64,000 bases of DNA, taken from NCBI GenBank assembly GCA_024673055.1, contig GCA_024673055.1_4537.1; one strand, 5' to 3'. The translations under genes and the position numbers were made by a program. The notes below the pieces were generated by a model. That model was not told the DNA's origin and ran no database searches. It saw only the letters and a program-made list of their open reading frames with translations. Below are positions 20,183 through 39,600 of this stretch, in pieces. The stretch is from a phage. Position 1 is the first letter of the stretch; every line of letters starts with the position of its first letter.

Positions 20183-20195
20183 TAAGGAGCTAAAA

Positions 20196-20681: not shown

Positions 20682-20693
20682 GAGGAGATTAGT

Positions 20694-20915: not shown

Positions 20916-20918
20916 GTG

Positions 20919-20946: not shown

Positions 20947-20994
20947 ATATCACATGAAGCGGGGAATAGTTCCCCGCAAAGAGAGGAGAAAAGA

Positions 20995-21969: not shown

Positions 21970-21975
21970 TAGATG

Positions 21976-22000
21976 AGCCTCCTTCGGGAGGCTATTTTAT
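21976..22000 (+). terminator. Rho-independent terminator AGCCTCC-TTCG-GGAGGCT + ATTTTAT
   Basis: Hairpin directly after terC stop. Confidence 0.55.
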
Positions 22001-22011
22001 AGGAGAGACTT

Positions 22012-22362: not shown

Positions 22363-22530
22363 AATACTTGTTGGTTGTGTTTGAAAATATCTGTTTTGCA
22401 ATAGGGTTGTTTGTTGTAATTTTTGTATTGACAAGCGTAATCAACGGCAGTAAAGTGAGTTTATACCGAGATGGAGAGCAACTTTATTGCTTCTCTGGAG
22501 ATTTCAAACATAGATGTATTAATAGTCAAA

Positions 22531-22983: not shown

Positions 22984-22997
22984 TAAGGAGAAAAACA

Positions 22998-23591
22998 ATG
23001 ACAATTTCTATTCGTACTTCCATTACAGGTGTTAAAAGTTTGCCTAATGCTTTGCAAATCACACGTGCTTTGAGGGATACGTTCTCTGCTGTGGATGAGC
23101 ATAAGATGCTCGATAATCTCTCAAATTGGCCCTATTTTCATTATTTTAAAAACGAAGACGACGAGTTTATAGACGCTGTTTCTTACGGTTATGATTTCGG
23201 TAAGGAAGTTTCCCCTGAAGAATTTGTAGCTACTGTGTTCCCAAACGGTTTGCCTACTCGCAGTAAACGTAAAAAAGGACCAAAAAACAAGAAACGTGCT
23301 ACTAATAAAGCTACCATTTTCTTTACTGATGGCACACAATATACGATTAAAGATTTTGAAGAGGTATCTTATACAGCAGGTGGGAGTCTTTCTTTCTACA
23401 CCATCAAAAAACAAAACTATACGTTCAGCCATGTTTCTAACATGATTGAAATGTTAGTAGAAGATATTGAAAGCGTGGCTGTGTTAGGTATGCATAAAAG
23501 CTTTTTAATTACAAATATTTCAGATTTCAGTGCAAGTTTATCTGGCCCTGATTTTGAAGCCACGACCACGTATTTCGCTTTTAAGGTGTAA
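22998..23591 (+). CDS. hypothetical protein (197 aa)
   Basis: ORF with AAGGAG RBS. Confidence 0.5.
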   Translation: MTISIRTSITGVKSLPNALQITRALRDTFSAVDEHKMLDNLSNWPYFHYFKNEDDEFIDAVSYGYDFGKEVSPEEFVATVFPNGLPTRSKRKKGPKNKKRATNKATIFFTDGTQYTIKDFEEVSYTAGGSLSFYTIKKQNYTFSHVSNMIEMLVEDIESVAVLGMHKSFLITNISDFSASLSGPDFEATTTYFAFKV

Positions 23592-23594
23592 GTT

Positions 23595-24185
23595 ATGCAT
23601 ACCGAGAGAGACTTGCAACTCTTGTGGTGGGAAGTGATGCAGGAAATAAAAGAAGATTTTCCTGTTTACTACAACATGTTACGTGAAGCAGGATATAAAG
23701 CTTGTGTTAGAAACAAAGTGAATAACTCTTTCGGTTGGTGCAACTACCGAGATAAAATTGTTGTTGTAAATTGGCACTTGCATAAGAACTCCACAAGAGA
23801 TATGATCGTGGATACAATGAAGCACGAAATTGCTCATGCTATTGATGGTTGTATGGGTAAGTTTAGTAGGCACGGTGCTCATTGGCAAAAACTGGCAGCA
23901 GAATTAGGGGCTAATCCTAAAGCCACTTCCAAAGAGCCGTTGAACCACGAATATAAATATGTTCTTGTTCTGGTAGATAGGTTTGCGACAAGATGTGTTA
24001 GAGGTTATAATCGTAAACCTAATCGCATGTACCCAGGTAAGCAACCTAATATGTGGTTGAAATCAGATAAAGAAGGGACCGAAGGAAAATTATGGTTGTA
24101 TAAATGGGACGATTGGGTTAAAGTAGCTAAAGAGTACGGTGTTTCACCATATATAAGAGATGCAGAAGAGGAGAATGAAGAATGA
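23595..24185 (+). CDS. SprT-like zinc metallopeptidase
   Basis: HEIAHAIDG (HExxH) followed by HGAHWQKLAAELG, as in SprT-like proteins. Confidence 0.55.
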   Translation: MHTERDLQLLWWEVMQEIKEDFPVYYNMLREAGYKACVRNKVNNSFGWCNYRDKIVVVNWHLHKNSTRDMIVDTMKHEIAHAIDGCMGKFSRHGAHWQKLAAELGANPKATSKEPLNHEYKYVLVLVDRFATRCVRGYNRKPNRMYPGKQPNMWLKSDKEGTEGKLWLYKWDDWVKVAKEYGVSPYIRDAEEENEE

Positions 24186-25294
24186 CAAGTCCATTTTTAA
24201 AAGCAGCTACTGGTGGTCAGAAGAAGCCTGAAATGAGCGTATTTGCTGCAACAACAGATGCAAGTAAATCTGTATTCGCTCCAAGCGTGTTAGATGCCAG
24301 TCCTGTTTATGCACCAGCGGCACCGCAAGAAGTTCCAGTTTTGCCTTCTATGACCCGACAAGAGATTGAAGAGATTGGGGCAGAGGCAGGAACAACCTTG
24401 CGTTCCTTGAATGCCGAGGTGTTAAAACATCAACGTAGTAATCAAGGCGATCAGATGAGTGAACGACTCACAGCTTTGATTAAACAGGCAAAACAACTTG
24501 ATCCAAACTCTATTAAACAAAGCAAGGGTATTACTAAACTCATTAAAAAAGTTATGGGTATGAAAGAAGACCTGTTCGGGGAGTTTGATAATGTTAATAA
24601 CCGTATTGAAGAGTTGGTAAAGAACCTTCAAATGGATATTCGCAAAGAAGAAGATTCCTTAGTATATCTTGAAAAGCTACATCAAGCTATTGGACAATAT
24701 GCTGCAAGTTTGAACCGAGATATGCAGCTTCTAACAGCAACCTATGAAAAAGAAGAACAAGCTTTGGCTGCTCTTCCAGAAGATGCAGTAGAACAGCGAC
24801 AAGTGATCCGAGATACTTTGGATCTTCTGGAGATTCGTATTGCAGATTTAAAAGCATTGCGCCTACTGTGTGTCCAAATGGGACCGCGTGTACAAGGTAT
24901 GCAAAAAGTTTCTGCAAGCTTAATGCGATCTGCGCGTAACATAGTAAATAATGTTATTCCTGCTTACTCTGCTAACTTCTCAATGTATATCGAGAGCTTA
25001 CGTCAAATGAAAGCAGCAGAGACGCAGAATAACGTTCTTGATGAATTTAACCTGGCAATTAAACTGGGTAGCGATCTTGCCACACAGAATCAGATCGAAG
25101 CAGCAGCACTGGCTAACCGTCAAGTGTTGGATATTGAAACTCTGCGTCACGATCAGGAAAACTTGGTTAAGATGTTGGAAGAAACTAACCGCATCAATAC
25201 GGAAGCCCGTGCTGCTCGTGTTGATTATATTAATGAAGTTCAGTCTCTGGAAGACGGGATGGTAGCTGCTGTGAAACGAGGGCTTGGTAAATGA
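24182..25294 (+). CDS. coiled-coil protein, possibly TelA-like toxic-anion-resistance family
   Basis: 370-aa helical protein inside a Ter-like gene neighbourhood; family assignment by size and context only. Confidence 0.4.
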   Translation: MTSPFLKAATGGQKKPEMSVFAATTDASKSVFAPSVLDASPVYAPAAPQEVPVLPSMTRQEIEEIGAEAGTTLRSLNAEVLKHQRSNQGDQMSERLTALIKQAKQLDPNSIKQSKGITKLIKKVMGMKEDLFGEFDNVNNRIEELVKNLQMDIRKEEDSLVYLEKLHQAIGQYAASLNRDMQLLTATYEKEEQALAALPEDAVEQRQVIRDTLDLLEIRIADLKALRLLCVQMGPRVQGMQKVSASLMRSARNIVNNVIPAYSANFSMYIESLRQMKAAETQNNVLDEFNLAIKLGSDLATQNQIEAAALANRQVLDIETLRHDQENLVKMLEETNRINTEARAARVDYINEVQSLEDGMVAAVKRGLGK

Positions 25295-25488
25295 GAATCC
25301 GTATCTATATAATTGATGAGGACATTGGTGTCCGTTATGATGACGAAAAACGATTCGCACCGATGGGAGGCATATATCCCCCAAGTGTTCTAGCAGTTTG
25401 TCGTGATTGTTATATTTATGAAGGTTGTCGTAACTTCCGTAAATTCGAACTCCTTGCAGATATTGACTTCAATGAGGAGGAGGAGTAA
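25291..25488 (+). CDS. small Cys-containing protein (65 aa)
   Basis: ORF, CRDCYIYEGC. Confidence 0.4.
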   Translation: MRIRIYIIDEDIGVRYDDEKRFAPMGGIYPPSVLAVCRDCYIYEGCRNFRKFELLADIDFNEEEE

Positions 25489-25661
25489 TGAAAATATTAC
25501 GAGTGAATATTGAAACTGCTTGGTGTGGATGCAATGAGGTTGTGGATATCGAAATTGAAGATGATATGTCTCAAGAGGATATAGAAGATCTTGCACACGA
25601 AACCTTTCAGGATTATTGTAATTACGGGTTCCATATTTTAGAGGAGGAAGAAGATGTATAA
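25488..25661 (+). CDS. hypothetical small acidic protein (57 aa), not in ORF track
   Basis: ATG overlapping previous stop (TAATG); GGAGGAGG RBS. Confidence 0.3.
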   Translation: MKILRVNIETAWCGCNEVVDIEIEDDMSQEDIEDLAHETFQDYCNYGFHILEEEEDV

Positions 25662-26052
25662 TCCAACAGGTATTCTTTTAAAACTTACAGTAACAGACCC
25701 TACTCTTTTCACTAAGTTAGCAAGTGGTGAAGTTTATGAAGTAATGAAAGATGATGACGGTTGGTGTTATCTTTGTGGCTACTTCCTCTGTGATGCAGAA
25801 GAGTTAGAATCCATTGTAACTAAAGGTTTTTATGAAGAACCAGGGTTCCGTGTGGAAACTACGCAGAAACCTGATACCATTACGTTGACTCGACAGGAAC
25901 TGATCACAATCATTGAAGATGCTTTTATTGATGGCTGGAATACACAAGATAATGACTGGGGTGGACCCGAAGCTTTTCTGGAACATCATAAAGCTTATGG
26001 AGAATTTTGTGAAACCACTGTAGCTCTTGATAATCTGAAGGAGGGTTTGTAA
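25654..26052 (+). CDS. hypothetical protein (132 aa)
   Basis: ORF with RBS. Confidence 0.45.
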   Translation: MYNPTGILLKLTVTDPTLFTKLASGEVYEVMKDDDGWCYLCGYFLCDAEELESIVTKGFYEEPGFRVETTQKPDTITLTRQELITIIEDAFIDGWNTQDNDWGGPEAFLEHHKAYGEFCETTVALDNLKEGL

Positions 26053-26615
26053 TGGGTTGTTTTAGCTTTTTGTGCAAAGAATCGGGCAAAGCTGCCCTTT
26101 CTACTTCTTTCGACGGATCACCTTGCTACCTCTTTCTTTTGAAGGACGGTGTTGTTATTGAAGAGATGTATGGCAACTATGATAGTTATGGTTGTGTTTT
26201 CTCTGGAAAGGAGGATGAAAATGGTGTTCGTGAACGATTTGAATGGGCTATGGATTGGAGTAAGGTTTGTGATTTGATGCATTCCTCAAATCCAAGGGAC
26301 GGTATCGCTATGGTGCTGGAAGAGTACTTTACAGGTGAAATCCCTACAGAACAATCTGACGGAGATCCTAACCAAGGTTGGGGTGATGGTGAAGAAGATC
26401 CAGATTGTTTTTTCAGCACAGAAAAGAATAAGTTTAAACGTGTTGACAACCCTTATCACAAAGTGCATAATACTCTCATTGAAACAGAAGATGACAAGAT
26501 GGAAATTGAAGAAGATGATCCTCTTGTAACACTTCCTATAAGTGAGTTACAAAAGATCACTAAGGAAGCTTACGATTTGGGCTTCAAAATTGGTAGAGGA
26601 GGTATGCGTGTTTAG
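26052..26615 (+). CDS. hypothetical acidic protein (187 aa)
   Basis: ORF with RBS. Confidence 0.45.
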   Translation: MGCFSFLCKESGKAALSTSFDGSPCYLFLLKDGVVIEEMYGNYDSYGCVFSGKEDENGVRERFEWAMDWSKVCDLMHSSNPRDGIAMVLEEYFTGEIPTEQSDGDPNQGWGDGEEDPDCFFSTEKNKFKRVDNPYHKVHNTLIETEDDKMEIEEDDPLVTLPISELQKITKEAYDLGFKIGRGGMRV

Positions 26616-26886
26616 ATTCAATATTCAAGAAGAAAAAAGTCAAGATTTACCTATTGCTTTCGAAGATCTTGACGTAGGGGCAACATTCATGTATTATGAT
26701 GCCTATGAAGACGCAGGGTTGGATACCTACCGTAACTTGGTGTTCATTAAAAATTCCACAAACAGTGCGATTTGTATTAATGGATCACTAGCACAACGAG
26801 GCTATACTCATTGCATCCCACCAGATACAAATATGGTGGAAGTAGATTTAGAAGTTACCAATATTACACTTAAGAAGGAGAAATAA
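26608..26886 (+). CDS. small protein, paralog A of 27908-28177
   Basis: GTG start after AGGAGG; shares (I/F)xDLDVG(A/D)TF(M/V)Y...GLD...EV(D/E)L(E/T)VT(N/G)ITLK with 27908-28177. Confidence 0.45.
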   Translation: MFRFNIQEEKSQDLPIAFEDLDVGATFMYYDAYEDAGLDTYRNLVFIKNSTNSAICINGSLAQRGYTHCIPPDTNMVEVDLEVTNITLKKEK

Positions 26887-26887
26887 T

Positions 26888-27682
26888 ATGTCCGAGAAAA
26901 TCAGCCTGAAAAAACGTCAAGAAAACCTTGCTTTCTCTCTGAAAAAGAATAAGAACCTGAATGAAGGTAAGATTGTTCTTCGTGTAGCATGTGCTCTAGA
27001 TATTTCTGGTAGTATGCATGGTCTATATTCTAGTGGGGTAGTGAGTGATTTTGTAGGTAAACTGCTTCCTTTTGGTATGCTGTTCGACGATAATCAACAA
27101 ATTGATATGTGGGCCTTCAATACGAGTTCCCAAGAGCTTACTCCAGCAACAGCAGACGTTTACGATGACTATGTTGGTAAATGTATGCGTAATGTTCGTA
27201 TCGGAGGTGGAACAAATTACGCCCCTGTAATGGCAGATATCTACGATGAGTATTTTGGCACTGTTACCAAATATATTACCACTAAACAAGTGGTACAAGA
27301 GGAGGCTCCAAAGAAAGGCTTCTTTAATCGTCTGCTTGGTAAAACTGAAACAGTGTCTGTAGAGCGTGAAAAAGTTGTAGCTGTATCTGAACCAGGTGCT
27401 GACGTTACCCCTGGTGTTGTATTCTTCCAGACGGATGGTGAGAATGGTGATCCTAGTGCTGTTCGTCGTCTTATTGAAGAGAATAAGAATAAACCTATTT
27501 ATTGGTTCATGGTTGGCGTTGGTAATGAGAAGTTTGGCTTCCTGAAAGAACTGGCAAATGCTTATGATAATGTTGGTTTTATTGGCATTAAAGATTTAGA
27601 CTTGACAGATTCAGAGCTTTATGACAAACTCTTATCTGAAGAGTTCGGAGAGTGGGTTGTTAAAGTAGGTGCTAAAAAATGA
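26888..27682 (+). CDS. von Willebrand factor A (vWA) domain protein, TerY-like, with TerD-like N-terminal leader
   Basis: MIDAS motifs DISGSM, GGTN, QTDGE; N-terminus KISLKK...SLKK resembles TerD N-terminus. Confidence 0.7.
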   Translation: MSEKISLKKRQENLAFSLKKNKNLNEGKIVLRVACALDISGSMHGLYSSGVVSDFVGKLLPFGMLFDDNQQIDMWAFNTSSQELTPATADVYDDYVGKCMRNVRIGGGTNYAPVMADIYDEYFGTVTKYITTKQVVQEEAPKKGFFNRLLGKTETVSVEREKVVAVSEPGADVTPGVVFFQTDGENGDPSAVRRLIEENKNKPIYWFMVGVGNEKFGFLKELANAYDNVGFIGIKDLDLTDSELYDKLLSEEFGEWVVKVGAKK

Positions 27683-27927
27683 TCGACGAGCTTGCCTCTC
27701 AAGTCATAGAAAATTATTGGCGCGAGAGAGAAGCTTTCATTATGCGCAGTCTCAAAGAGTATTTCATTGGGACTGTGCGAATGGAAGATATTGTAAGTAG
27801 AGTAGAGATTCATGTATGGCCCGATTATGAAGAATGGGTTGACAAAGAAAATGAAAATGCTATAATTCTTCGTATATACAAACCGGAGATAACATTAGGA
27901 GGAAGAAGTGTTAAACTTCGAAATTGA
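27679..27927 (+). CDS. hypothetical protein (82 aa)
   Basis: ORF, start overlaps previous stop. Confidence 0.4.
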   Translation: MIDELASQVIENYWREREAFIMRSLKEYFIGTVRMEDIVSRVEIHVWPDYEEWVDKENENAIILRIYKPEITLGGRSVKLRN

Positions 27928-28177
27928 TGAGCAAAAAGTAAATAAACGATGTCTTACCATTAAAGATTTGGATGTAGGAGATACTTTCGTCTATGAAAAT
28001 GCATTTGACGAAAATGGTTTAGACCTTAGTGAAATCATTGTTTATTTAAAAGTAGATGATGGGGAAAATGATTGTTCTGCTGTAGAACTAAACCATCATG
28101 CACAATTAGTATCAATCCAAAACACATCCAAGCTTTTGGAAGTAGAATTGACTGTAACTGGTATTACACTTAAATAA
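27908..28177 (+). CDS. small protein, paralog B of 26608-26886
   Basis: See 26608-26886. Confidence 0.45.
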   Translation: MLNFEIDEQKVNKRCLTIKDLDVGDTFVYENAFDENGLDLSEIIVYLKVDDGENDCSAVELNHHAQLVSIQNTSKLLEVELTVTGITLK

Positions 28178-28192
28178 TAGAGGAGACAAAAG

Positions 28193-28795
28193 ATGACTGA
28201 TAAAATTTCCCTGAAAAAAGGCTCTAGCGAAAAAATTTCCCTGAAGAAAGTTGCTCCGGCTCTGAAAGAACTGCGCCTGGAATTCTCTTGGAAATCTGAT
28301 TCTAAACTGGATCTGGATGTAAGTGCACTGGTTTGTCGTCACAATGCCACTGGCAATCCTGAAATGCTGTCTGCACGTCACCTGGTTTGCTATGCTAACA
28401 AGTTTGATCCTGAACGTTCTACCTTCGCTGGTGACGATGTTCGTGATGGAACTGGCAGCATGGAGCAGATTGATATTACTCTGGCTAAAATCTCTCCTGA
28501 TGCACAAGAGATTGCCTTTGTTCTGACCATTGATGATGATACAGGTCTGAAACGTTTTGGTCATGCTTCTGAAGGTATGCTTAAAATCTTTGACTCCGAG
28601 CGCAATGTTGAAATTCTGGATTTTGACTTCCTGGCTCCTGAAGTAGCTGGCAACACAATCTGCCACGTGGCTTCCTTGGTTCGTGAAGATGGGGAATGGA
28701 AGCTGAAAGCATATGGTGTAGGTAAAGCTGGTCTGGATATTTGTGATGTGGTGATGGCCTTCGGTGGTAAAAAAGAATGGTATGAATGTCCATAA
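28193..28795 (+). CDS. terD: TerD-family protein
   Basis: Duplicated KISLKK leader, DLDVSAL, AGDDVRDGTGS, AFVLTIDDD, DGEWKLKAYGVG align to TerD-family blocks; CTG/CGT/GGT-dominated codon usage. Confidence 0.8.
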   Translation: MTDKISLKKGSSEKISLKKVAPALKELRLEFSWKSDSKLDLDVSALVCRHNATGNPEMLSARHLVCYANKFDPERSTFAGDDVRDGTGSMEQIDITLAKISPDAQEIAFVLTIDDDTGLKRFGHASEGMLKIFDSERNVEILDFDFLAPEVAGNTICHVASLVREDGEWKLKAYGVGKAGLDICDVVMAFGGKKEWYECP

Positions 28796-30117: not shown

Positions 30118-30681
30118 ATGATTTATTATATTACTCCCTATCTGACAGGAAATATCGGCAAGGCTATCAATGAAGCCATTGCCGTTCTTCCAGATGATAG
30201 TTGGGTGTGTTTAAGAGATACCGATACAATGTTCCTCCTACCTGATCAACCATCTATGCTTGAAGAGCTTGTTATGTCAAACCCGCCTTTTGATGTAATA
30301 GGTGCAACTTGTAACAGGTTAGGCAGTGGTTATCAGCTTTTCTCTAACCAAATTAACGATGATCCAGATATTCTAAACCATATAGAATATGCTAAGATTG
30401 CAAAAGAATATCATAAAGTGAGTGTTGAAGAAGTTCCTTTCGGAACACCTCTGGCAGGTTTCTTTTTGCTTTTTAGAAAATCATTGTGGAATGAAATTCC
30501 TTTCGAAGAAAAATCTATCCAATTCGACTTAATTTTCTCTCGCACTTTACATGAAAAAGGAAAGAGGTTAGGATTGATGCGGGGAATGTATCTGTTTCAC
30601 ATTTACAGATTAGGTCAAACAAATCCTCAACGGTCTATACATCATTTATTACACTGTCACGATCACAGTAAAACTATTTAG
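30118..30681 (+). CDS. hypothetical protein, possibly glycosyltransferase-like
   Basis: LRDTDTMF (DxD-like); weak. Confidence 0.4.
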   Translation: MIYYITPYLTGNIGKAINEAIAVLPDDSWVCLRDTDTMFLLPDQPSMLEELVMSNPPFDVIGATCNRLGSGYQLFSNQINDDPDILNHIEYAKIAKEYHKVSVEEVPFGTPLAGFFLLFRKSLWNEIPFEEKSIQFDLIFSRTLHEKGKRLGLMRGMYLFHIYRLGQTNPQRSIHHLLHCHDHSKTI

Positions 30682-30689
30682 GAGAGAAA

Positions 30690-31373
30690 ATGGAAAATAT
30701 TAAAATCGGAGTGGGTGTTATCACTGTAGGTGTCCGTCCACTTAAAGACTACCTTGTAACAGATCCACGTGCAGATTTTCGAGTATTCAACGATCCAGAC
30801 CGTAAAGGTGTAGCTTATGCCAGGAATGAACTTATGCACCAGTTTTATGAAGAAGGTTATGATTATTGGTTTATTTTTGACGACGATTGCTACCCAGTCA
30901 TGGAAGGATGGGAAACATACTTTGTAGATCAAGCTGTTTCTGGAGGATGGGATTTCTTTGGTATGCCGGAGTACTTCAAAGATAAAGTTGTTGGAAGCAA
31001 AGGAGAAGTTATTCTCTGGGAACTTGCAATGTGTCAATTTGCAATGTATTCTCGTGCCGTTGTTGAGAAGATGGGTTATTTCCGCCCTTACACTCACGGT
31101 TATGGTTTTGAAGATGCCGAATGGGGACACCGTTTGAAAGCTGCTGGTTTGAATCATGGTATTCAGGCAACACCTTGTCCACTTCGTATCATGGCTTATA
31201 TCCACCCAGACGATGTTTTTGGAAACAATCCTATGCCTTTTGCTAATCTGACAAAAGAAGAGAAAGAAGCTGCTATCGGGATTAACTGGGAAGAATATAA
31301 AGCATCTTTAGAGGATATTAAAAATGGGAAAATCCGAATTTCCTATGAGGAGGCACTGGCACATGTCAAATAA
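30690..31373 (+). CDS. GT-A fold glycosyltransferase-like protein
   Basis: FIFDDDCYP (DxD), YGFEDAEWGHRL. Confidence 0.55.
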   Translation: MENIKIGVGVITVGVRPLKDYLVTDPRADFRVFNDPDRKGVAYARNELMHQFYEEGYDYWFIFDDDCYPVMEGWETYFVDQAVSGGWDFFGMPEYFKDKVVGSKGEVILWELAMCQFAMYSRAVVEKMGYFRPYTHGYGFEDAEWGHRLKAAGLNHGIQATPCPLRIMAYIHPDDVFGNNPMPFANLTKEEKEAAIGINWEEYKASLEDIKNGKIRISYEEALAHVK

Positions 31374-32310
31374 AAAATGGTCTAAACTAAAAATTGATGC
31401 GAAACCTCACAGCGGTTGTGACTATCATCGTATTGTTATGCCACTTAACAACCATAATCTTCAACCTAAGAAAGATGTTGTTGTGTTTAACCGTATCCAC
31501 TCTAAAGGTGCAGAATACGTTTTATCTTTGAAACGTCAAGGTGTTAAGATTGTTGTAGATTTAGATGATTTCTACCAACTTAATCCAGAACATTATTTAG
31601 CAAGTCTATACGAGTCAAACACTCATACTATTGTAGCTATGGTTAAGCTTGCTGATGTGGTTATTGTGACTACAGAATATTTGGCATATAAGATCCGTCA
31701 CTTAAATAGGAATGTTGTTGTGATCCGAAATGCACTTCCTTTTGATAGTGGACAATTCACTTTGTCAAATGATCGTTCATCCGGTACCCCTGTTGTATGG
31801 GCTGGAGGTGCTAGTCACGAACCAGATTTACGACTAGTCTCTAATACTTTCGATGATGAGCTTCTTACTATTGCGGGATATGAAGCATCGCAGAGCATCA
31901 CGGGACAAGAGTGGATTAAGATTCGCAGAAATTTACCAAATGCTAAATATAAAGCTGCTGTAAAAGATTTAGATAATTACATGAGTGTTTACGAAAGTCA
32001 TGCTATTGCTATAGCTCCTTTGGTAGATAATGATTTTAATAATTGTAAAAGTAATCTCAAAATCCTAGAAGCTGGAGCAAAGGGTATTCCGATTGTTTGT
32101 TCTAAGGTATTACCTTATTTTAACCCTGTAGATGCTCGTGCTGTTGCTTACGCAGAGAACAAAGCAGAATGGCATTACGAAATTGTTAAGCTTCTTCGCA
32201 ATCCAAACTATCGGGAAGATCGTGGCTTGTTCTTGGCTGAACATGTTCGAACACATTATAATCTGGCAGATGCAAATGAGTTGCGACGCCAGGTTATTGA
32301 AAGTTTGTAG
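31363..32310 (+). CDS. GT-B fold glycosyltransferase-like protein, paralog 1
   Basis: SNLKILEAGAKGIPIVCS resembles GT4-type E-A-x-A-x-G-x-P motif; ATG at 31363 after GAGGAGG. Confidence 0.55.
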   Translation: MSNKKWSKLKIDAKPHSGCDYHRIVMPLNNHNLQPKKDVVVFNRIHSKGAEYVLSLKRQGVKIVVDLDDFYQLNPEHYLASLYESNTHTIVAMVKLADVVIVTTEYLAYKIRHLNRNVVVIRNALPFDSGQFTLSNDRSSGTPVVWAGGASHEPDLRLVSNTFDDELLTIAGYEASQSITGQEWIKIRRNLPNAKYKAAVKDLDNYMSVYESHAIAIAPLVDNDFNNCKSNLKILEAGAKGIPIVCSKVLPYFNPVDARAVAYAENKAEWHYEIVKLLRNPNYREDRGLFLAEHVRTHYNLADANELRRQVIESL

Positions 32311-32317
32311 GTGAAGT

Positions 32318-33262
32318 ATGGGACAAATAATTCTTGACAATCGTAACGGAATCAATTATAGTGTCTGCGATTTCCATAGGGTAGTGCTGCCTTACTCAAG
32401 GCAGTTCTCTTCACAACCTAAATACAACGTTTTCGTTTTTAACGGAGTGCCAACAAAAGGTAAAGAGGGCTTTTTAGCCCTTAAAAACCTAGGCTTTAAA
32501 ATGGTTATGGATTTGGATGACTCTTTAGTTATTCCAAAAGGACACATGTTAGAAGGTATTTTTGAATCAGGTATTCGTGAACATTTAAAATGGTTTTTAG
32601 AGCACAGCGATCTTGTTACAACTACGACACCTGCTTTGCAAGTTGAACTTTCACAATACAATGATAATGTGCACATAATCCCTAATGGACTTCCTTACGA
32701 TGAAGGTCAATTTGTGTTGACCCGTGATCGCTACTCCAAAACTCCATTAGTCTGGGCTGGAAGTGAAACACATAAACAAGATTTGGCTATCTTACCTGAT
32801 TTTGGTAAAGATCTTACAATATGTGGTTTTCGTAGGGATTCTGAAGTTTTAAGTAGTCGTGAATGGTCTGTAATCAGAGAAAATGTAGCACCAACTTGTG
32901 TTTATGAAGGTGTAAGACCATATGCCAACTACATGGAATCTTACGATGGTCATCAAATCAGTCTTGCGCCATTGATTGATAACGTGTTTAATAATGCAAA
33001 AAGCAATCTTAAAATTCTTGAGGCAGGTGCTAAGGGTTTACCTTTGATCTGTTCTCCTCGTGAGAATTATCATACGCAAGAGTTTAAAGATTTGTTATTC
33101 TTTGCTGAAACACCTTCCGAGTGGAAAGATATTACGGAATACTTATTAAGTGCTCCCGATGTTTGCATGGAGAAAGGATTAGCATTAGCTAAGTATGTCA
33201 GGACTCATTATCACATTGATGTGTTGAATGAGCGTCGTAGACTTTTATTTGAGGAGCTATAA
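32318..33262 (+). CDS. GT-B fold glycosyltransferase-like protein, paralog 2
   Basis: Collinear similarity to 31363-32310 (VVFN..., DLDD, SNLKILEAGAKGLPLICS, YVRTHY). Confidence 0.55.
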   Translation: MGQIILDNRNGINYSVCDFHRVVLPYSRQFSSQPKYNVFVFNGVPTKGKEGFLALKNLGFKMVMDLDDSLVIPKGHMLEGIFESGIREHLKWFLEHSDLVTTTTPALQVELSQYNDNVHIIPNGLPYDEGQFVLTRDRYSKTPLVWAGSETHKQDLAILPDFGKDLTICGFRRDSEVLSSREWSVIRENVAPTCVYEGVRPYANYMESYDGHQISLAPLIDNVFNNAKSNLKILEAGAKGLPLICSPRENYHTQEFKDLLFFAETPSEWKDITEYLLSAPDVCMEKGLALAKYVRTHYHIDVLNERRRLLFEEL

Positions 33263-33540
33263 TGATTAACACTTTTGATTTTGAATACACCACTCGTAAC
33301 GGGAAAGCTTTAGTCGTGGAGGTGGATTACTATTATGAAGAGCCTAACCCGCTTTCTCGTGAAAGTGATTGGGATTACCACGGAGGGCTTTTAATTGACG
33401 GTATTCGTTTTTACGAAGGCTCTACAGAAGTTTTTGAAAAAGATTTAAATGTAACTGTAGCAGAAATTGCTTTCCAATTTAGAAAGCACATGGAAGAACT
33501 AGAAGCAGAATATATGATGGAGACTAACGAACCATTTTAA
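33262..33540 (+). CDS. hypothetical protein (92 aa)
   Basis: ORF, start overlaps previous stop. Confidence 0.45.
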   Translation: MINTFDFEYTTRNGKALVVEVDYYYEEPNPLSRESDWDYHGGLLIDGIRFYEGSTEVFEKDLNVTVAEIAFQFRKHMEELEAEYMMETNEPF

Positions 33541-33552
33541 CAGGAGAACAAA

Positions 33553-35331
33553 GTGTCGCACATTATAACTAAATATGGATTTGATGTTGATCTTAGCAAG
33601 GAAGGGCATACAGGTTGTCCGCGCTGCATGAAAAATGGCAAGGATCGCTCTCGTAATAACCTGATGGTTTATGGATTAGATTCTAATGGAGAGCATAAAG
33701 GTGCTAAGTGCTTTGCGTGTGAATACACTATTCCTAGCGTAGAATGGTTACGAGAAAATGGTGAAGTTTTAGAAGAAGAGGAGGAGATTGTGGGTTCGGA
33801 ATTTAATAAACAGATTCATCGTAAAATTGTTCAAGAAACATCAACCAACCCACGTGGTTATCGAGGCATTAAAGAAAAAGTTTCATCTTTCTATGGTGTT
33901 CGTTATGAATACCGTCAGGAAGGGGATCAGATGGTAGTAGAAAGTTGTTTATATCCAACTACTATCGGTAAAGAATTGGTTGGTTTTAAGCGTCGTATTC
34001 ATCCTAAAGATTTCAGTAAACCTATTGGTCAAGTAGGTAAAGATGTAGATCTTTTTGGACAAATTCGTTTTGCAGACCGTTCTCATACTGTGGTAATTAC
34101 AGGTGGTGAACACGATGCTCTGGCAGCTTATCAAATGCTGTCTGAAAACTTGGACAACAAATATGAACTTCCAGCAGTAGTTAGTGGCACAACTGGTGAA
34201 ACCAGTATGTATAAACAAGTTCAGGCACAATATCCTTTTTTTGAAAAATTTAAGAAGATTATTGTTTGCATGGATAATGACAAAGCAGGTAATGAGGCAT
34301 TTGAAAATATTGTTAAGGTGCTGCCTCGTAACAAAGTCTACCGTATGCAGATGGATCTTAAGGATGCCAATCAGTATCTGGAAGAAGGTCGTGCAAAGGA
34401 TTTCGTAAAAGCTTTTTGGAGTGCTCGTCTATACACCCCAGCAGGTGTTTATGCTTCTAATGTCTTGTATGAAGCTGCATTAGAATGCTTGGAATCCAAG
34501 ATGATTACCTTGCCTCCTTTTATGCGTGTTGCTGCAAATATGCTGGGTGGTGGTTTAGTAGAGGAAGAGATTACAGTCATCCTGGCAAAGACCAGTATCG
34601 GTAAAACTTTGATGGTGAACGAGATCACCAAACATATTATTGTTGCGCACCCAGAACATACCCTAGGTATTCTGTCCTTGGAAGCAACTTATAAGAAATA
34701 TTCTCGTAACCTGTTGTCCTCGTTCCTGCATATTCCTCTACACAGGAAAACACCGGAAGAGAAATTTCAAATCTTGGAAGAGAATAAAGAAAAAATCCTA
34801 GATTTTTACGAAAGAGAAGATGGATCACCACGTTTTTATGTATGTGATGATCGTGGAGCAGATGTGGAGTCTATCAAAGAAAAAGTTTTGGAGATGATCA
34901 TCTATTTTGGAGTAACAATTCTTGTTATCGACCCTTATTCTGATTTGCTTTCTGGTATGGATGTTCAAGCCCAGGAAGAGTTAGCAACATGGTTGAAGCG
35001 CATCATGAAAGAGTATGCTATAACTATTATCGTCATCTCACACGTTAAGAAATCGGCTAATGGTGGCAATGAACACTTAACAGAGGACGATGCAATGGGT
35101 AGTAGTTTCTTGGCTAAAGGTGCTGGTATTACCTTGGCTTTGGAACGAGATAAAGCCGCTGAAGACCCTGTAGAACGCAATACGACTCATTGCTTTATCC
35201 TAAAAAACCGTGAGTTTTCGGAAACTGGTCCGGCAGGGCAGTTTTACTATGACATTAGAACTGCAACTCTGCATGACAAAGAGCAGTATTTCAACAATCC
35301 TGCTAATTTGCCTACGGATAGCAACTATTAA
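33553..35331 (+). CDS. bifunctional DNA primase-helicase (T7 gp4-like)
   Basis: N-terminal zinc ribbon CPRC...CFAC, TOPRIM-like VVITGGEHD/CMDNDKAG, Walker A AKTSIGKT, Walker B LVIDPYSD; GTG start. Confidence 0.85.
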   Translation: MSHIITKYGFDVDLSKEGHTGCPRCMKNGKDRSRNNLMVYGLDSNGEHKGAKCFACEYTIPSVEWLRENGEVLEEEEEIVGSEFNKQIHRKIVQETSTNPRGYRGIKEKVSSFYGVRYEYRQEGDQMVVESCLYPTTIGKELVGFKRRIHPKDFSKPIGQVGKDVDLFGQIRFADRSHTVVITGGEHDALAAYQMLSENLDNKYELPAVVSGTTGETSMYKQVQAQYPFFEKFKKIIVCMDNDKAGNEAFENIVKVLPRNKVYRMQMDLKDANQYLEEGRAKDFVKAFWSARLYTPAGVYASNVLYEAALECLESKMITLPPFMRVAANMLGGGLVEEEITVILAKTSIGKTLMVNEITKHIIVAHPEHTLGILSLEATYKKYSRNLLSSFLHIPLHRKTPEEKFQILEENKEKILDFYEREDGSPRFYVCDDRGADVESIKEKVLEMIIYFGVTILVIDPYSDLLSGMDVQAQEELATWLKRIMKEYAITIIVISHVKKSANGGNEHLTEDDAMGSSFLAKGAGITLALERDKAAEDPVERNTTHCFILKNREFSETGPAGQFYYDIRTATLHDKEQYFNNPANLPTDSNY

Positions 35332-35863: not shown

Positions 35864-36658
35864 TTGAGCAAGTTGAACACACTTGATCAATATTACACTA
35901 ACCCCGCTTATGCGGGGTTCTTATGTGATAAGATCAAAGAAATTTTTGGAGAGGAAGCTAACTACGTAGAACCATCTGCGGGAGAAGGAGCTTTCTCTTC
36001 TTGTTTTAAAAACATAACTTCTTTTGATATTGACCCTAAGTTTGAAGATTGTATTGAGGCAGATTTTTTAGCTCAATCTGTTGAGTCTGTTGGTAGTGTA
36101 ACTGCTTTTGTCGGTAATCCCCCGTTTGGAAAAAATGCTAGTCTTGCCATTAAGTTCTTTAACCATTGTGCTGAAATGTTGGATAACGAAGGTGGTATTT
36201 GTTTTATCTTGCCTCGCACATTTCAAAAAATCTTTTTTGCACACAAACTAAATCCCCACATGCATCTTCTTTACGAAGAAGAATGTCCAAAAGGATCTTT
36301 TATTCTTCATGGAGAACCTTGGGATGTTCCTTGCGTATTCCAGATATGGATTAAACGCAATGAGAAGCGTTCTCCCGTTGTTTTAGGAGAGAATCGACTG
36401 TTCGTATTAGGTAACAGTAAAGACTACGATATAGCCGTTAGGAGAGCGGGAGCAAGTGCAGGTAAAGTGTTATCAGAAGAAGATTCTTTATCTGAAGCAT
36501 CCACCTATTTTTTAAAAGCCTTGACTTCTGATCTTAAAACGCGTATCATTGAGGCTTACCCGTTACTTAAAGCTGAAGCTAGTAAAACTGCGGGAGTAAG
36601 AAGTTTAAGTTTAAAAGAACTTCAGTGGGTTCTGGAGAACATTAGAAAGGAGGAATAG
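35864..36658 (+). CDS. SAM-dependent N6-adenine/N4-cytosine-type methyltransferase (orphan)
   Basis: Motif I EPSAGEGAF, motif IV NPPF; TTG start after GGAGGA. Confidence 0.55.
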   Translation: MSKLNTLDQYYTNPAYAGFLCDKIKEIFGEEANYVEPSAGEGAFSSCFKNITSFDIDPKFEDCIEADFLAQSVESVGSVTAFVGNPPFGKNASLAIKFFNHCAEMLDNEGGICFILPRTFQKIFFAHKLNPHMHLLYEEECPKGSFILHGEPWDVPCVFQIWIKRNEKRSPVVLGENRLFVLGNSKDYDIAVRRAGASAGKVLSEEDSLSEASTYFLKALTSDLKTRIIEAYPLLKAEASKTAGVRSLSLKELQWVLENIRKEE

Positions 36659-39600
36659 TGAGTAAGTTTACATGGGATATTGAAGCAAACGGATTGTTGA
36701 ATAATGACACTATTGATTATTTAGCTAGTCCTTATCGTCTCAAAGACACATTTCAAATGCACTGTATTGTCTTAGAGAACCATGAAACAGGAGAAATAGT
36801 AGCTTTCCACGATGGCCCTAAATACATCTTTGATGGGCGTCCTTATGAAGAGTCAGATGGTAAATACACATATGTTCTTAAAGAGTATGTGGCGCAAGAT
36901 TACACACATTTTCAACTAAAAGATTTCCCAGACTTTATTAATCATGAAGGTTATTTTAAAGATAAGCCTGAATATCTGGTTGAAATGGCTGTGGCTCACA
37001 ACGGTATCAACTACGACTGGTTGGCTACAAAACTGTTTTATGGCTTAGATTACAGTGTTAAATATAACACGTGGGGCAAAAATAAGGTAAAACTTATTGA
37101 CTCCTTGATTTTGAGTAAAGTGTTAAACCCAGATCGAAAGATTGAGGGCAAATCAGGACATAGTTTGGCAGCACTTTCTCGAAAGGCAGGTGGTGATGTA
37201 AAAATAGATTTCCGTAAAGAGATTCCAGAAGAAGATCGATTTAAGACTTTTGCTGCGGATATGCTTTATTACTGTATTTATGACAACAAAGCCAATACGA
37301 GCGTATATAATTACCTTATGGAAGAATGGGGCGATTATGATAAATGGGAAGGTCCATTTGAACTTGAACAACGTGTAGCAGACATTATTACACGCCAGGA
37401 ACACCGTGGGTTTGCTTTTAACATGAAGCAAGCAGAAGAGAACCTTGCTTTTTTGGATGCAGAAATGGAGCGTCTTCGTTTACTCGTTGAGCCTATTTTG
37501 CCACCTAAACCAGCAACAAAAGGTTATCTTAAGGCTTTTATTCCACCTAAGTTGCAAATTAAAAAGAACTTAGAGCCAACTAACCATATGATCAATTTTG
37601 CTAAGAAACATGATGGTCATTTGGAAGAGAGGGATGGCGATTGGTGGTTAGTTATGTTGGGGAAAGAGTGGAAACTGCCAGTTGCAGCAGATGAGCCTCT
37701 ATGTGATCCTAACATTCCTGCAACATTGAACGATACAACCCATATTAAAAACTGGCTCGTAGGATTAGGTTGGGTACCGTCTGAATATAAAGATAAAGAC
37801 TTGACGCTTAAATCTGGCACCAAAATTAAAAAGAGCGAGGAAGAACTTCAGAAAGGTATTAGAGCTTACGTTGAGCAAACTCTATCTTCTAATTTTTGTC
37901 AGGATCGTTGTGATCATCTGGAGTGCACACCGGAAACTTTGGAAAGGAAGATTCAAGAGCGTATAGCAAAAGGTAAAGGTCGCGGTCTTAAAGTATTGAC
38001 TAACCCATGTTTTACCAAAGGTCAGGAAAAAGAAATTTGTCCTAACCTGCAAGCTTTGGGTGAGAAATTTCCTTATGCTACACAGATTGTAGAATACTTA
38101 ACGTATAAGCATCGTAGGAACTCTATTTTAGGTGGCGGTGCTGATTGGGAAGAAGATGAAGAAGATCAAGAATACGATAAAGGTTTCTTAGCCGCAGTAA
38201 GGGCGGATGGGCGTATTCCTACACCAGCCGCTACATGTGATGCTGCAACCTCTCGTATGAAACATAGATCTGTAGCTAATATTCCTCGTGTCACATCTTT
38301 GTTTGGATGGGAGATGCGTAACTTGTTTGGTGTAGAGGTTCCTAAATACTTCCAGATTGGCTACGACTTCGACTCTTTGGAAGCAAAAATTGAATCGCAT
38401 TACTGTGTGCCGATGGATGCTCAAGCTTTGACTCGTAAAGGTTGGGTAGGATATCACGACCTGAAGGAAGGGGATGAGATTTTAGGGTACAATGCTGAAA
38501 CAGGTCTGAAAGAATGGACTAAAGTAAAAGGTAAGGTCTTCTATAAAAATAGTAAGACGTTTGAGATTAAAGGGAAATCACACACTTACCGTGCAACAGC
38601 AGATCACCGTTGGTATGTTAATACCCGTAGTAAAGGGAATACTTATGTGCCTAAAGTCAGAACAACTGCCGAGCTTTGCACAGGAGATAACATTATTTGT
38701 AATGCTCCATTTAACATGGAACAAGATCAGGTAAATAGTTTAACTTCTGTTCAACAGGGTAAATGGGATGTTCCGTGGGTAGAACGTGTAGTTAATATGT
38801 CTCATGCCGAGCGTGTAGCTTTCTTGGAAGGTTTCTTGATTGCAGATGGTTACTGGCACGAACATAAACAAAAACCTGTTTGGCGTTGGGCGCAGAACCC
38901 AGGTGAACTTTTTGAAGCAGCTTTAACTGCCTCGTACCTGGTGCATGGAGGCAATATCTCTGTAGCTTTCAATACAAAAGAGCAGAAAGTAAAAGTGGCA
39001 ACATTGACTAACCGCTCTCACATTCCTGTTCAAAGTTTGACTATTGAAGAGTGGGGTGTAGAAGATGTTTGGTGTCCACAAACAGAACTTGGTACGTGGG
39101 TCATGCGTCAGAAAGACTGCATTACCATCACAGGAAACTGTTGGCGGTACGAGCCGGAGCCACACGAATATTGTAACGCTCTGTTGTTAGAGAAACCTAA
39201 TGATGTTCACACAATGATGGCAAAACGTATCACTGAAACTATTGGACGTAAATTTGAACGTAGTCCTGCTAAATCTGTTAAGTATGGTATTACCTATGGT
39301 GCACAAGCCGACAAGGTTGCTAAAACAATTGGTAGCGACAAGTTTACAGGTCAATTGGTGTTCGATGCTTTCTGGGAAGCTGCATTCCCATTGGCGCGTC
39401 TTAAAGAACGTTTAAACGATTTCTGGGTTAAGACTGGTAAACAATATGTTTTGGGTATTGACGGTCGTAAGGTTCCTACTCGTTCTGCTCACGCGATTCT
39501 TAACTCTCTGTTCCAAAGCGGTGGGGTTATCTGTGCTAAACGTGCAATGGTTATTTATGATGACATGATCGAAGAAGAAGGGCTAAGTGTTGACTTCTTT

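What the first reader, a model, noticed from the sequence alone, without database searches (positions are those of the whole stretch)
30118..33262. Block of four glycosyltransferase-like genes next to the replisome genes
One weak GT-like ORF, one GT-A-like ORF with a DxD motif, and two paralogous GT-B-like ORFs lie directly upstream of primase-helicase and DNA polymerase. Placement among DNA metabolism genes fits DNA base glycosylation as an anti-restriction hypermodification, but surface glycan modification is also possible. No hydroxymethylase is visible in this window.
Basis: inference. Interest (0 to 1): 0.55.

Follow-up and report, generated by a model that had tools for sequence, protein, structure and literature searches.

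The report
Four-gene phage sugar-transferase cassette
Four adjacent genes in this E. coli phage (phAPEC8 group) really do encode sugar-adding enzymes, but what they put sugar on is unknown, and the attractive idea that they coat the phage DNA to block restriction enzymes is poorly supported.

Summary
The window is a Phapecoctavirus (phAPEC8-like) genome. Four tightly packed, co-oriented genes lie just upstream of primase-helicase, a methyltransferase-like gene and DNA polymerase I. They encode two GT-A enzymes (ORF1, ORF2) and two paralogous GT-B enzymes (ORF3, ORF4). RefSeq already calls all four glycosyltransferases, and DNA rhamnosylation has already been proposed for these phages.

That proposal is weak. 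I found no route to a hydroxylated base in a near-identical genome, only ThyX. BASEL phage PaulScherrer carries the same four-gene block plus RmlC, and its group is reported as exceptionally sensitive to restriction systems. Neither fold resembles DNA glycosyltransferases more than it resembles lipid, wall or protein glycosyltransferases.

The GT-B/GT-A pair is the mobile core of variable gene clusters in unrelated phages. These clusters add further GTs, sugar-type O-methyltransferases and an acetyltransferase, and usually sit beside packaging or head genes. In one lineage the GT-B lies in a DNA-modification hot spot.

My best reading is a glycan-assembly cassette fed partly by phage RmlC/RmlD. 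The acceptor is unresolved: virion protein about 0.35, DNA about 0.2. Interest is moderate.

The parts
30118..30681 (+). ORF1, 187 aa, small soluble GT2-like GT-A glycosyltransferase (DxD = D34-T-D36; GFFLLFRKSLW...FD motif)
   Evidence: Matches phrog_14179 (E 1e-112) and the C-terminal half of phrog_26101. A strong GGAGGGGAG ribosome-binding site precedes it. The family profile finds 982 representatives. The ORF1-like domain of P0086 scores 44 bits against Pfam Glycos_transf_2, and fusions with TOD1_MUCI70 and Methyltransf_24 occur. There is no direct Pfam, NCBIfam or PDB hit.
30690..31373 (+). ORF2, 227 aa, acidic (pI 5.0) GT-A glycosyltransferase, DDD 64-66 and ED 141-142 invariant
31363..32310 (+). 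ORF3, 315 aa, mildly basic (pI 8.5) GT-B glycosyltransferase. This is the widespread ('ancestral') type of the family.
   Evidence: Matches phrog_7162 (E 2.5e-148). The start is supported by a ribosome-binding site. Relatives outside the subfamily are closer to ORF3 than to ORF4, for example 51% against 39% in a Serratia prophage. Conserved motifs are CDYHR, DLDD and KSNLKxLEA.
32318..33262 (+). ORF4, 314 aa, acidic (pI 5.6) GT-B glycosyltransferase, a paralog of ORF3; among the loci examined the duplicate was seen only in this large-myovirus group
33262..33540 (+). 92-aa very acidic ORF (pI 4.2), translationally coupled to ORF4 (ATGA overlap); a possible partner of unknown function
   Evidence: Matches phrog_4240, function unknown. 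It keeps the same position after the second GT-B in relatives, including PaulScherrer. Its membership in the cassette is inferred from position only.

Best explanation
The block is a cytoplasmic glycan-assembly cassette. It consists of four soluble Leloir-type glycosyltransferases: two GT-A (ORF1 GT2-like, ORF2) and two paralogous GT4-like GT-B (ORF3, ORF4). They are co-transcribed with the replication genes. I infer that they act in sequence to build a short oligosaccharide on a phage-made macromolecule.

At least one donor is probably dTDP-L-rhamnose. The phage carries RmlC and RmlD about 74 kb away, outside the window. These would complete a pathway whose first two steps every enterobacterial host supplies through its ECA genes rffH and rffG.

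The ORF3-type GT-B plus the ORF2-type GT-A form the conserved, horizontally mobile core. ORF1 and the ORF4 duplicate are add-ons.

The acceptor is not shown. On comparative grounds I judge a virion structural protein, possibly a fibre, more likely than DNA. Bulk replacement or decoration of a DNA base is unlikely.

- Shown: the enzyme folds and motifs, the paralogy, the mobility and composition of the module, and the absence of a recognisable hydroxylated-base pathway.
- Inferred: sequential action, the rhamnose donor, and the acceptor.
For: **The four proteins are glycosyltransferases.** None has a membrane segment.

**The module is mobile.**
- A Serratia HK97-like prophage has ORF1, ORF2 and ORF3 homologs in the same order (41%, 37% and 51% identity). 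They lie between the lysis genes and HNH/terminase.
- Pseudomonas prophages have the GT-A/GT-B pair directly upstream of terS/TerL.
- A 45-kb phage contig has the pair between TerL and portal.
- In 66 of 78 loci found with the GT-A as seed, the GT-B is in the same locus (within 10 kb; adjacent in the gene maps examined).

**The clusters carry glycan-tailoring enzymes.**
- A hexapeptide acetyltransferase occurs in 31 loci.
- SAM methyltransferases also occur.
- A second lineage has GT-B, GT-A, two further GT2 genes and FkbM and Methyltransf_24 methyltransferases immediately before TerL.

**ORF1 relatives show the same pattern.**
- In Cellulophaga phage phi18:1, a TOD1 plus ORF1-like GT and a Methyltransf_24 gene sit inside the head module, between portal/MuF and protease/capsid.
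- The Che8 operon gp108-110 sits in the same slot before HNH/terminase, and gp108 carries a second, C-terminal domain that I read from its sequence, unchecked against Pfam, as a TylF-type methyltransferase. PMC12363180, citing Freeman 2023, reports glycosylated Che8 virion proteins and names gp110 as essential for capsid glycosylation.

**Rhamnose supply.** RmlC and RmlD are co-inherited with the block across Stephanstirmvirinae and related Klebsiella phages.

**Against bulk DNA modification.** See, and PMC8594841 and PMC13463889.
Against: - No glycoprotein has been reported for any phage of this group.
- The 2026 cryo-EM study of phi92 reached 3-3.9 A for capsid, tail and baseplate. A text search of it found no mention of glycans, glycosylation or extra density. 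The fibres were not resolved.
- The capsid, decoration, sheath and tube proteins have no Ser/Thr-rich tails like those of glycosylated mycobacteriophage proteins.
- The Che8 enzymes are related only at GT-A superfamily level.
- In this genome the block is transcribed with replication genes, not late genes.
- In one environmental lineage the GT-B lies within a few kb of ParB, C5-methyltransferase, Mom, TET/JBP and TAGT genes.
- Validated phage DNA GT-B enzymes have the same structural neighbours, BshA, MshA and PglH (bioRxiv 10.1101/2023.12.21.572611).
Confidence: 0.35

Rival explanations
1. DNA glycosylation. One GT (ORF3, the basic one) adds a sugar to a modified base in replicated phage DNA and the others extend it, protecting the DNA from some nuclease-based defences. 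To fit the data it would have to be sparse or sequence-specific, or use an acceptor made by an unrecognised enzyme.
For: - The block is co-transcribed with primase-helicase, an N6-methyltransferase-like gene and Pol I.
- ORF2 family members give weak TAGT hits, 12 of 19 members, best E 1e-4. ORF2 also gives a local hit to phrog_842, beta-glucosyl-HMC-alpha-glucosyltransferase.
- ORF3-type GT-B proteins are mildly basic.
- In environmental siphovirus contigs, GT-B relatives lie near ParB (24 loci), C5-methyltransferase (10), Mom (6), TET/JBP (2) and TAGT-like genes (3).
- Validated 5mYOX-associated phage DNA GT-B enzymes share the structural neighbours BshA, MshA, PglH and T4 beta-GT, and DNA di- and trisaccharides exist (bioRxiv 10.1101/2023.12.21.572611).
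- Rhamnosylation of hydroxymethylated bases was proposed for these phages in PMC7552041.
Against: - No ThyA homolog, TET/JBP or C5-methyltransferase is detectable; only ThyX and an NT5C-like gene are.
- PaulScherrer, with the same block, belongs to a group reported as exceptionally RM-sensitive (PMC8594841).
- Stephanstirmvirinae phages Bas61 and Bas62 are sensitive to Druantia III and ARMADA II, which the authors think recognise unmodified DNA (PMC13463889).
- TAGT matches are below threshold and cover only the DxD region. TAGT ranks 46th among viral structural neighbours.
- T4 alpha-GT and beta-GT rank 17 and 32.
- Of 78 loci seeded with the GT-A, none has TET, TAGT or Mom.
- ORF1, ORF2 and ORF4 are acidic.
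- To my knowledge, O-methyl or O-acetyl tailoring and clusters of four or more GTs are not known for DNA glycans.
Confidence: 0.2
2. Host envelope remodelling. The GTs act at the cytoplasmic face on Und-PP-linked ECA or O-antigen intermediates or on LPS core. This would mask or deplete the phage's own glycan receptors, giving superinfection exclusion or less loss of progeny on debris. The phage RmlC and RmlD would divert the ECA precursor dTDP-4-keto-6-deoxyglucose.
For: - Top structural neighbours are lipid-linked glycan, LPS and teichoic acid enzymes: WlaC, PglA-like, PimA, HepE and TarM for GT-B, and GlfT2, TarP, TarS and RmlT for GT-A.
- These phages use ECA and the first outer-core glucose as receptors (PMC8594841).
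- Homologs occur in prophages.
Against: - There are no membrane segments and no GtrA, GtrB or GtrC, flippase or ligase partners.
- In prophages the genes lie in the late operon next to the terminase, not in a lysogenic-conversion position.
- Complete surface remodelling within a lytic cycle is considered futile for abundant glycans (discussion in PMC11990801).
- The family is almost confined to phages: 23 loci in 185,579 species genomes against at least 572 in IMG/VR.
Confidence: 0.15
3. Glycosylation of a cytoplasmic host or phage protein, an RNA or a small molecule. Examples would be a host-takeover modification analogous to T4 ADP-ribosylation, or EarP-type arginine rhamnosylation.
For: The enzymes are soluble and are expressed with early or middle genes. 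The rhamnose supply genes lie among nucleotide-metabolism genes. A Ter-type 'nucleoside-like metabolite' cluster lies directly upstream.
Against: - There is no specific similarity to EarP, NleB, Lgt or toxin GTs in the fold searches.
- Four GTs plus tailoring enzymes suggest an oligosaccharide rather than a single regulatory sugar.
- The module occurs without Ter genes in all small phages examined.
Confidence: 0.12

Closest known systems
T4 alpha- and beta-glucosyltransferases (GT72, GT63) and the T2/T6 beta-glucosyl-HMC glucosyltransferase
   Different: No 5-hydroxymethylpyrimidine pathway is present. The similarity is lower than to many lipid and small-molecule GTs. Relatives are restriction-sensitive. 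The cassette also has GT-A members and, in relatives, tailoring enzymes.
TET/5mYOX-associated glycosyltransferases (Pfam TAGT PF20691; Burke 2021, PMC8256090; Pyle 2023, bioRxiv 10.1101/2023.12.21.572611)
   Same: ORF2 has the GT-A fold with an R...DDD...ED motif. Both occur in small phages near ParB, methyltransferase and terminase genes. In a few environmental contigs the GT-B relative is within a few kb of TET/JBP or TAGT-like genes: TAGT in L030/L031, TET plus a TAGT-like gene in L084, TET alone in L034.
   Different: ORF2 scores below the Pfam cut-off, and only over the DxD region. No 5mYOX or C5-methyltransferase is present in this genome. None of the 78 GT-A-seeded loci has TET or TAGT.
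Mycobacteriophage virion glycosylation operons (Che8 gp108-110, Corndog, Myrna; Freeman et al. 2023, cited through PMC12363180)
   Same: Both are clusters of three or four soluble GTs with a sugar-type methyltransferase. The Che8 operon sits just before HNH/terminase, the same slot as in the Serratia and Pseudomonas prophage relatives.
   Different: The Che8 enzymes are all GT-A and are related only at superfamily level, with no GT-B. No glycosylated virion protein is known for any Gram-negative phage of this group. Here the block sits in the replication module.
Giant-virus capsid and fibril glycosylation machinery (PBCV-1 A064R, mimivirus rhamnose and viosamine clusters)
   Same: Both combine virus-encoded nucleotide-sugar steps, including rhamnose, with several GT-A domains and methyltransferases. 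PBCV-1, mimivirus and STIV GTs appear among the GT-A structural neighbours. The biology of those systems is from my own knowledge.
   Different: The similarity is only at fold level, and the hosts and virion architecture differ.
Prophage seroconversion systems (GtrABC; TarP)
   Different: The Gtr systems are membrane proteins expressed from the prophage. This cassette is soluble, lies in lytic operons, and is carried mainly by virulent phages.

Membership tests
GT-B glycosyltransferases, GT4-like / Pfam Glyco_trans_1_2 (PF13524) | Two Rossmann-like domains; C-terminal nucleotide-sugar motif (…LEAxAxGxP…) | tested here: met
GT-B glycosyltransferases, GT4-like / Pfam Glyco_trans_1_2 (PF13524) | Pfam score at or above the gathering threshold | tested here: inconclusive
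   ORF4 scores 25.2 bits against a cut-off of 25. ORF3 scores 20.2 bits, below the cut-off.
GT-A / GT2-like glycosyltransferases | Single Rossmann-like fold with a DxD motif and a downstream acidic (xED) motif | tested here: met
GT-A / GT2-like glycosyltransferases | Pfam Glycos_transf_2 score at or above threshold | tested here: not met
   ORF2 scores 14.4 bits against a cut-off of 23.3. ORF1 has no hit.
T4-type DNA glucosyltransferases | Closest structural or sequence relatives are AGT or BGT | tested here: not met
T4-type DNA glucosyltransferases | The genome encodes a dCMP/dUMP hydroxymethylase or hydroxylase (ThyA homolog) that provides the acceptor | tested here: not met
   The whole-genome annotation of a 98.8%-identical phage lists only ThyX. 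Pfam confirms Thy1 and an NT5C-like gene and finds no ThyA. Not every hypothetical protein was scanned.
T4-type DNA glucosyltransferases | Virion DNA contains glycosylated bases and resists restriction | not testable with these tools
   Literature only: phi92-like phages with the same block are reported as exceptionally RM-sensitive (PMC8594841; block shown).
TET-associated glycosyltransferases (TAGT, PF20691) | Pfam score at or above 27.5 bits over the full domain | tested here: not met
   ORF2 scores 19.3 bits, over residues 32-68 only. Twelve of 19 family members hit the model, all with weak E-values (best 1e-4), and ORF2 itself is below the cut-off.
TET-associated glycosyltransferases (TAGT, PF20691) | Neighbouring 5mYOX (TET/JBP) and usually a C5-methyltransferase | tested here: not met
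   None is present in the window or among the candidate genes of the relative's genome. Of 78 GT-A-seeded loci, none has TET or TAGT.
Mycobacteriophage-type virion glycosylation operon | GTs homologous to Che8 gp108-110 | tested here: not met
   Only GT-A superfamily-level similarity was found: BLASTP E 5e-4 for ORF2 against gp108, with weak profile scores.
Mycobacteriophage-type virion glycosylation operon | Operon placed beside the packaging or head genes | tested here: inconclusive
   This is met in the small-phage relatives. It is not met in this window, where the block adjoins the replication genes.
Mycobacteriophage-type virion glycosylation operon | Glycans covalently attached to capsid or tail proteins | not testable with these tools
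   The phi92 cryo-EM paper mentions no glycans, and its fibres were unresolved.
Gtr-type seroconversion system | Membrane GtrA flippase, GtrB bactoprenol GT and a serotype-specific GtrC | tested here: not met
   None of the four proteins has a hydrophobic segment; the maximum Kyte-Doolittle 19-residue mean is 1.65 or less. No such Pfam domains were found.

The most novel reading that the evidence does not exclude
The cassette installs a rhamnose-containing oligosaccharide on phage DNA at low density or at specific sequences. It would use an acceptor made without any ThyA-type or TET-type enzyme, which would be new acceptor chemistry, for example through the divergent ThyX or an unrecognised oxygenase. 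Such a modification would escape the EcoRI, EcoRV, type I and type III assays done so far, yet could counter other defences.
Probability: 0.12. Interest if true: 0.85.

Novelty: new variant of a known kind. Interest (0 to 1): 0.4.

Why it matters
Phapecoctavirus and phi92-like phages have some of the broadest host ranges among coliphages and are often chosen for therapy and biocontrol. A strictly conserved four-GT block plus a rhamnose-completing pair is therefore likely to matter for their fitness.

If the acceptor is a virion protein, this would be, to my knowledge, the first virion glycosylation system in phages of Gram-negative bacteria. That would bear on immune recognition and pharmacokinetics. 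If the acceptor is DNA, it would be a new hypermodification made without the known hydroxylating enzymes.

Either way, the GT-B/GT-A pair defines a large, phage-restricted family of variable glycan gene clusters that has not been studied experimentally. There are at least 572 viral contigs for the GT-B and 982 representative clusters for the ORF1 family. The acceptor question can be tested directly with BASEL phage Bas60 on E. coli K-12.

Tried and rejected
1. Sequence search of all solved structures with ORF1, ORF2 and ORF4, and with an ORF1 profile, found nothing meaningful.
2. NCBIfam gave no family for any of the proteins.
3. A profile-profile comparison of the ORF1 and ORF2 families was not significant. 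ORF1 was placed by transitive homology instead.
4. The promoter and terminator scan showed no excess over shuffles, so no operon boundaries could be defined.
5. I looked for Ser/Thr-rich tails on capsid, decoration, sheath and tube proteins as a sign of O-glycosylation and found none.
6. I looked for 5mYOX among the conserved unknown neighbours of the GT-B in environmental contigs. Cluster 3 has no HxD…H motif and looks like a DNA-binding protein. True TET/JBP is present in only two loci.
7. Cluster look-up for the names of distant ORF1 relatives returned only unnamed metagenomic proteins.
8. The 108-aa 'glucose-1-phosphate thymidylyltransferase' annotated beside RmlC in several records has no Pfam support. 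The 'complete dTDP-rhamnose pathway' claimed in PMC7552041 is therefore only RmlC plus RmlD.
9. The collagen-like tail fibre as acceptor is a lead only. Full-length homologs track the GT-bearing subfamily, but collagen-like fibres are common in phages that show no sign of the cassette.
10. Freeman 2023 and Schwarzer 2012 could not be read because they are not held.
Full report
**Identity of the window.** The 3.1-kb region is 98-99% identical to more than 60 sequenced phages of the genus Phapecoctavirus (phAPEC8-like, Stephanstirmvirinae). Five records with no similarity between 80% and 95% mark more distant relatives. RefSeq records already label all four genes 'glycosyltransferase'.

**The observation.** The ORF listing shows four co-oriented ORFs: 30118-30681, 30690-31373, 31324/31363-32310 and 32318-33262. 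A 92-aa ORF follows and overlaps the ORF4 stop. After it come primase-helicase (33553-35331), a 154-aa ORF, a methyltransferase-like gene (35864-36658) and DNA polymerase I (36658-39990).
- ORF1 has a strong ribosome-binding site.
- ORF3 most likely starts at 31363, behind a GAGGAGG site, which agrees with the PHROG alignment and the annotations of relatives.
- PHROG matches are very strong: phrog_14179, phrog_2456 and phrog_7162 twice. Pfam matches are weak or marginal.
- ORF3 and ORF4 are 41% identical paralogs.

**What the proteins are.**
- ORF2 (pLDDT 89.4) is a GT-A with invariant DDD and ED motifs. It is closest to GlfT2, chondroitin polymerase, ppGalNAc-T, beta4GalT7, TarP, TarS and RmlT. 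Among predicted viral structures its neighbours are generic 'glycosyltransferase 2-like' proteins. A TAGT protein appears only at rank 46.
- ORF1 has no Pfam, NCBIfam or PDB match, and its family profile does not align significantly with the ORF2 family. A profile search of 1.84 billion representatives found 982 relatives, many of them about 400-aa fusions. In P0086 the ORF1-like domain scores 44 bits against Glycos_transf_2. Other relatives are fused to a TOD1/MUCI70 GT-like domain and to Methyltransf_24. ORF1 is therefore a small GT2-like GT-A.
- All four proteins lack hydrophobic segments. ORF3 is mildly basic (pI 8.5), and the other three are acidic.

**The rest of the genome.** The window does not cover the whole phage, so I read the full annotation of phage anhysbys, which is 98.8% identical over the block.
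- RmlC and RmlD lie about 74 kb away, beside glutaredoxin, NrdAB and ThyX.
- There is no RmlA or RmlB. The 108-aa ORF that some records call RmlA has no Pfam support.
- From established knowledge of enterobacterial common antigen synthesis, every enterobacterial host makes dTDP-4-keto-6-deoxyglucose through RffH and RffG, whereas RmlC and RmlD are strain-specific. I infer that the phage pair guarantees dTDP-L-rhamnose in any host.
- RmlC is found in almost the same set of cultured phage groups as the GT block.
- No ThyA homolog, TET/JBP or C5-methyltransferase was found. Pfam confirms a divergent ThyX and an NT5C-like protein, and finds nothing in the 'Dcm-like' gene.

**What the literature says.**
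- Olsen et al. noted the rhamnose genes and speculated about rhamnosylation of hydroxymethylated nucleotides (PMC7552041).
- I checked that BASEL phage PaulScherrer (Bas60) carries the same four genes in the same order, followed by the small ORF and primase-helicase. Its ORF2 is 75% identical, and it also has RmlC.
- Bas61 and Bas62 are sensitive to Druantia III, ARMADA II and plasmid-expressed Zorya II. [quoted passage not shown]
- Taken together, this argues against wholesale base replacement or decoration.
- No experimental study of the DNA or of virion glycans of these phages turned up in my searches.

**Comparative context of the GT-B.**
- The family is almost confined to phages. There are at least 572 confirmed loci in IMG/VR and only 23 in one genome per 185,579 species. 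Most of the latter are prophages, plus a few giant multidomain proteins.
- Relatives outside the subfamily resemble ORF3 more than ORF4, so ORF4 is a lineage-specific duplicate.
- A Serratia HK97-like prophage has ORF1, ORF2 and ORF3 homologs in the same order, between the lysis cassette and HNH/terminase.
- Pseudomonas prophages and related contigs have the GT-A/GT-B pair directly before terS/TerL.
- A 45-kb contig has the pair between TerL and portal.
- In a large environmental siphovirus lineage the order is: replication, Erf and resolvase genes; unknown genes; hexapeptide acetyltransferase; GT-A; GT-B; ParB; terS; TerL.
- Some contigs of that lineage place the GT-B after a tape-measure-like gene, but the annotation there is weak.

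**Context that points towards DNA.** In the same environmental lineage, the stretch around the GT-B is a hot spot for DNA-modification genes. Counted over about 100 loci, these are ParB-like genes in 24 loci, C5-methyltransferase in 10, Mom in 6, TET/JBP in 2 and TAGT-like genes in 3. Pyle et al. showed that 5mYOX-associated phage GT-A and GT-B enzymes glycosylate 5hmC with mono- to trisaccharides. The structural neighbours of those GT-B enzymes are BshA, MshA, PglH and T4 beta-GT, the same set I obtained (bioRxiv 10.1101/2023.12.21.572611). Fold therefore cannot decide the acceptor, and a DNA role cannot be excluded.

**Context that points away from DNA.**
- When I seeded the search with the GT-A instead, 66 of 78 loci carried the GT-B within the 10-kb flanks, and it was adjacent in the gene maps I examined. 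None had TET, TAGT or Mom, 2 had C5-methyltransferase and 3 had ParB.
- A second lineage has extended clusters immediately before TerL. They contain GT-B, GT-A, two more GT2 genes, several unknown genes and FkbM-type and Methyltransf_24-type methyltransferases.
- In Cellulophaga phage phi18:1, a TOD1 plus ORF1-like GT and a Methyltransf_24 gene sit inside the head module, between portal/MuF and protease/major capsid protein.
- The Che8 operon gp108-110 occupies the slot just before HNH/terminase. PMC12363180, citing Freeman 2023, reports that Che8 virion proteins are glycosylated and names gp110 as essential for capsid glycosylation. Reading its sequence, I take the C-terminal half of gp108 to be a TylF-type methyltransferase domain; I did not check this against Pfam.
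- Multi-GT clusters with O-methyl and O-acetyl tailoring are typical of protein or envelope glycans. To my knowledge they are not known for DNA glycans.

**Limits of the virion-protein reading.**
- The Che8 enzymes are related only at superfamily level.
- The 2026 phi92 cryo-EM paper (3-3.9 A) does not mention glycans, although its fibres were not resolved.
- The major structural proteins have no Ser/Thr-rich tails.
- In this genome the block is transcribed with replication genes.
- One lead is a 674-aa tail fibre with collagen-like Gly-X-Y runs at 45379-47403 on the minus strand. Its full-length homologs are confined to the GT-bearing subfamily. By analogy with rhamnosylated collagen-like BclA of Bacillus anthracis (own knowledge), it could be an acceptor. 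This is speculation.

**Verdict.** The anti-restriction DNA-glycosylation interpretation is already in the literature and is not supported by what can be checked. The best-supported description is a conserved, mobile glycan-assembly cassette with an unresolved acceptor. The feature is already annotated but functionally unstudied, so interest is moderate. My estimates for the acceptor are:

| Acceptor | Probability |
|---|---|
| Virion protein | about 0.35 |
| DNA (sparse or specific) | about 0.2 |
| Host envelope intermediates | about 0.15 |
| Other cytoplasmic targets | about 0.12 |
| Unknown | remainder |

Noticed in passing
window 18706-28795 (+): A phage-borne Ter-type cluster lies directly upstream of the GT block. 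By Pfam it contains a weak, sub-threshold HAD-hydrolase match (18706-19362), ComF-like PRTase_3 (19355-20182, E 7e-42), a weak Macro-like domain (20130-20681), TerC (20995-21969), an SprT-like gene (23595-24185), TelA (24182-25294), vWA-TerF-like (26888-27682) and TerD (28193-28795). It resembles the Ter-associated 'nucleoside-like metabolite' module predicted by Anantharaman, Iyer and Aravind (own knowledge). Its role in a virulent phage is unexplained.
   Followed up: partly
window 36658-39990 (+), insertion about 38407-39138: DNA polymerase I is 1110 aa here but 865 aa in phage ETEC-TG. The difference is one 244-aa insertion (residues 584-827) that starts with Cys and is followed by Cys, which is intein-like. 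The flanks are 99.7-100% identical. Phage anhysbys has the long form.
   Followed up: partly
window 45379-47403 (-): A 674-aa tail fibre protein has four collagen-like Gly-X-Y runs, including GTNGTNGTDGTNG. Full-length homologs occur only in Stephanstirmvirinae, while rV5-like phages match only the last 90 or so residues. It is a possible glycosylation acceptor, which is speculative.
   Followed up: partly
window 35864-36658 (+): A 264-aa gene between primase-helicase and Pol I has weak Eco57I-type N6-methyltransferase similarity and is annotated as an N6-adenine methyltransferase in relatives. It suggests these phages rely partly on methylation.
   Followed up: no
L030, L031, L033, L034, L084 and related IMG/VR loci, about 1-6 kb around the GT-B: Environmental siphovirus contigs that carry GT-B relatives have a variable DNA-modification island between ParB and the terminase. 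It can hold Mom-family genes (E 8e-51), C5-methyltransferase, TET/JBP and TAGT (42.7 bits, above the cut-off). When TET or TAGT is present, the GT-A and the acetyltransferase are absent and a SAM methyltransferase is present.
   Followed up: partly
proteins P0013 and P0014 (alignment): Two database GT-B proteins are chimeras with an ORF3-type N-terminal half and an ORF4-type C-terminal half. They could be recombinants between the tandem paralogs or assembly artefacts.
   Followed up: no
L105-L109 (Gammaproteobacteria MAGs): Giant proteins of 880-1700 aa contain a domain about 30% identical to ORF3, and they are the main non-prophage cellular relatives of the family. Their function was not examined.
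   Followed up: no
anhysbys L003 42852-43850 (-), outside the window: The phage 'ThyX' is divergent. Only residues 22-175 match Pfam Thy1, at 35 bits, in a 332-aa protein, and it sits beside an NT5C-like deoxynucleotidase. It is worth checking before a non-canonical pyrimidine pathway is ruled out.
   Followed up: no
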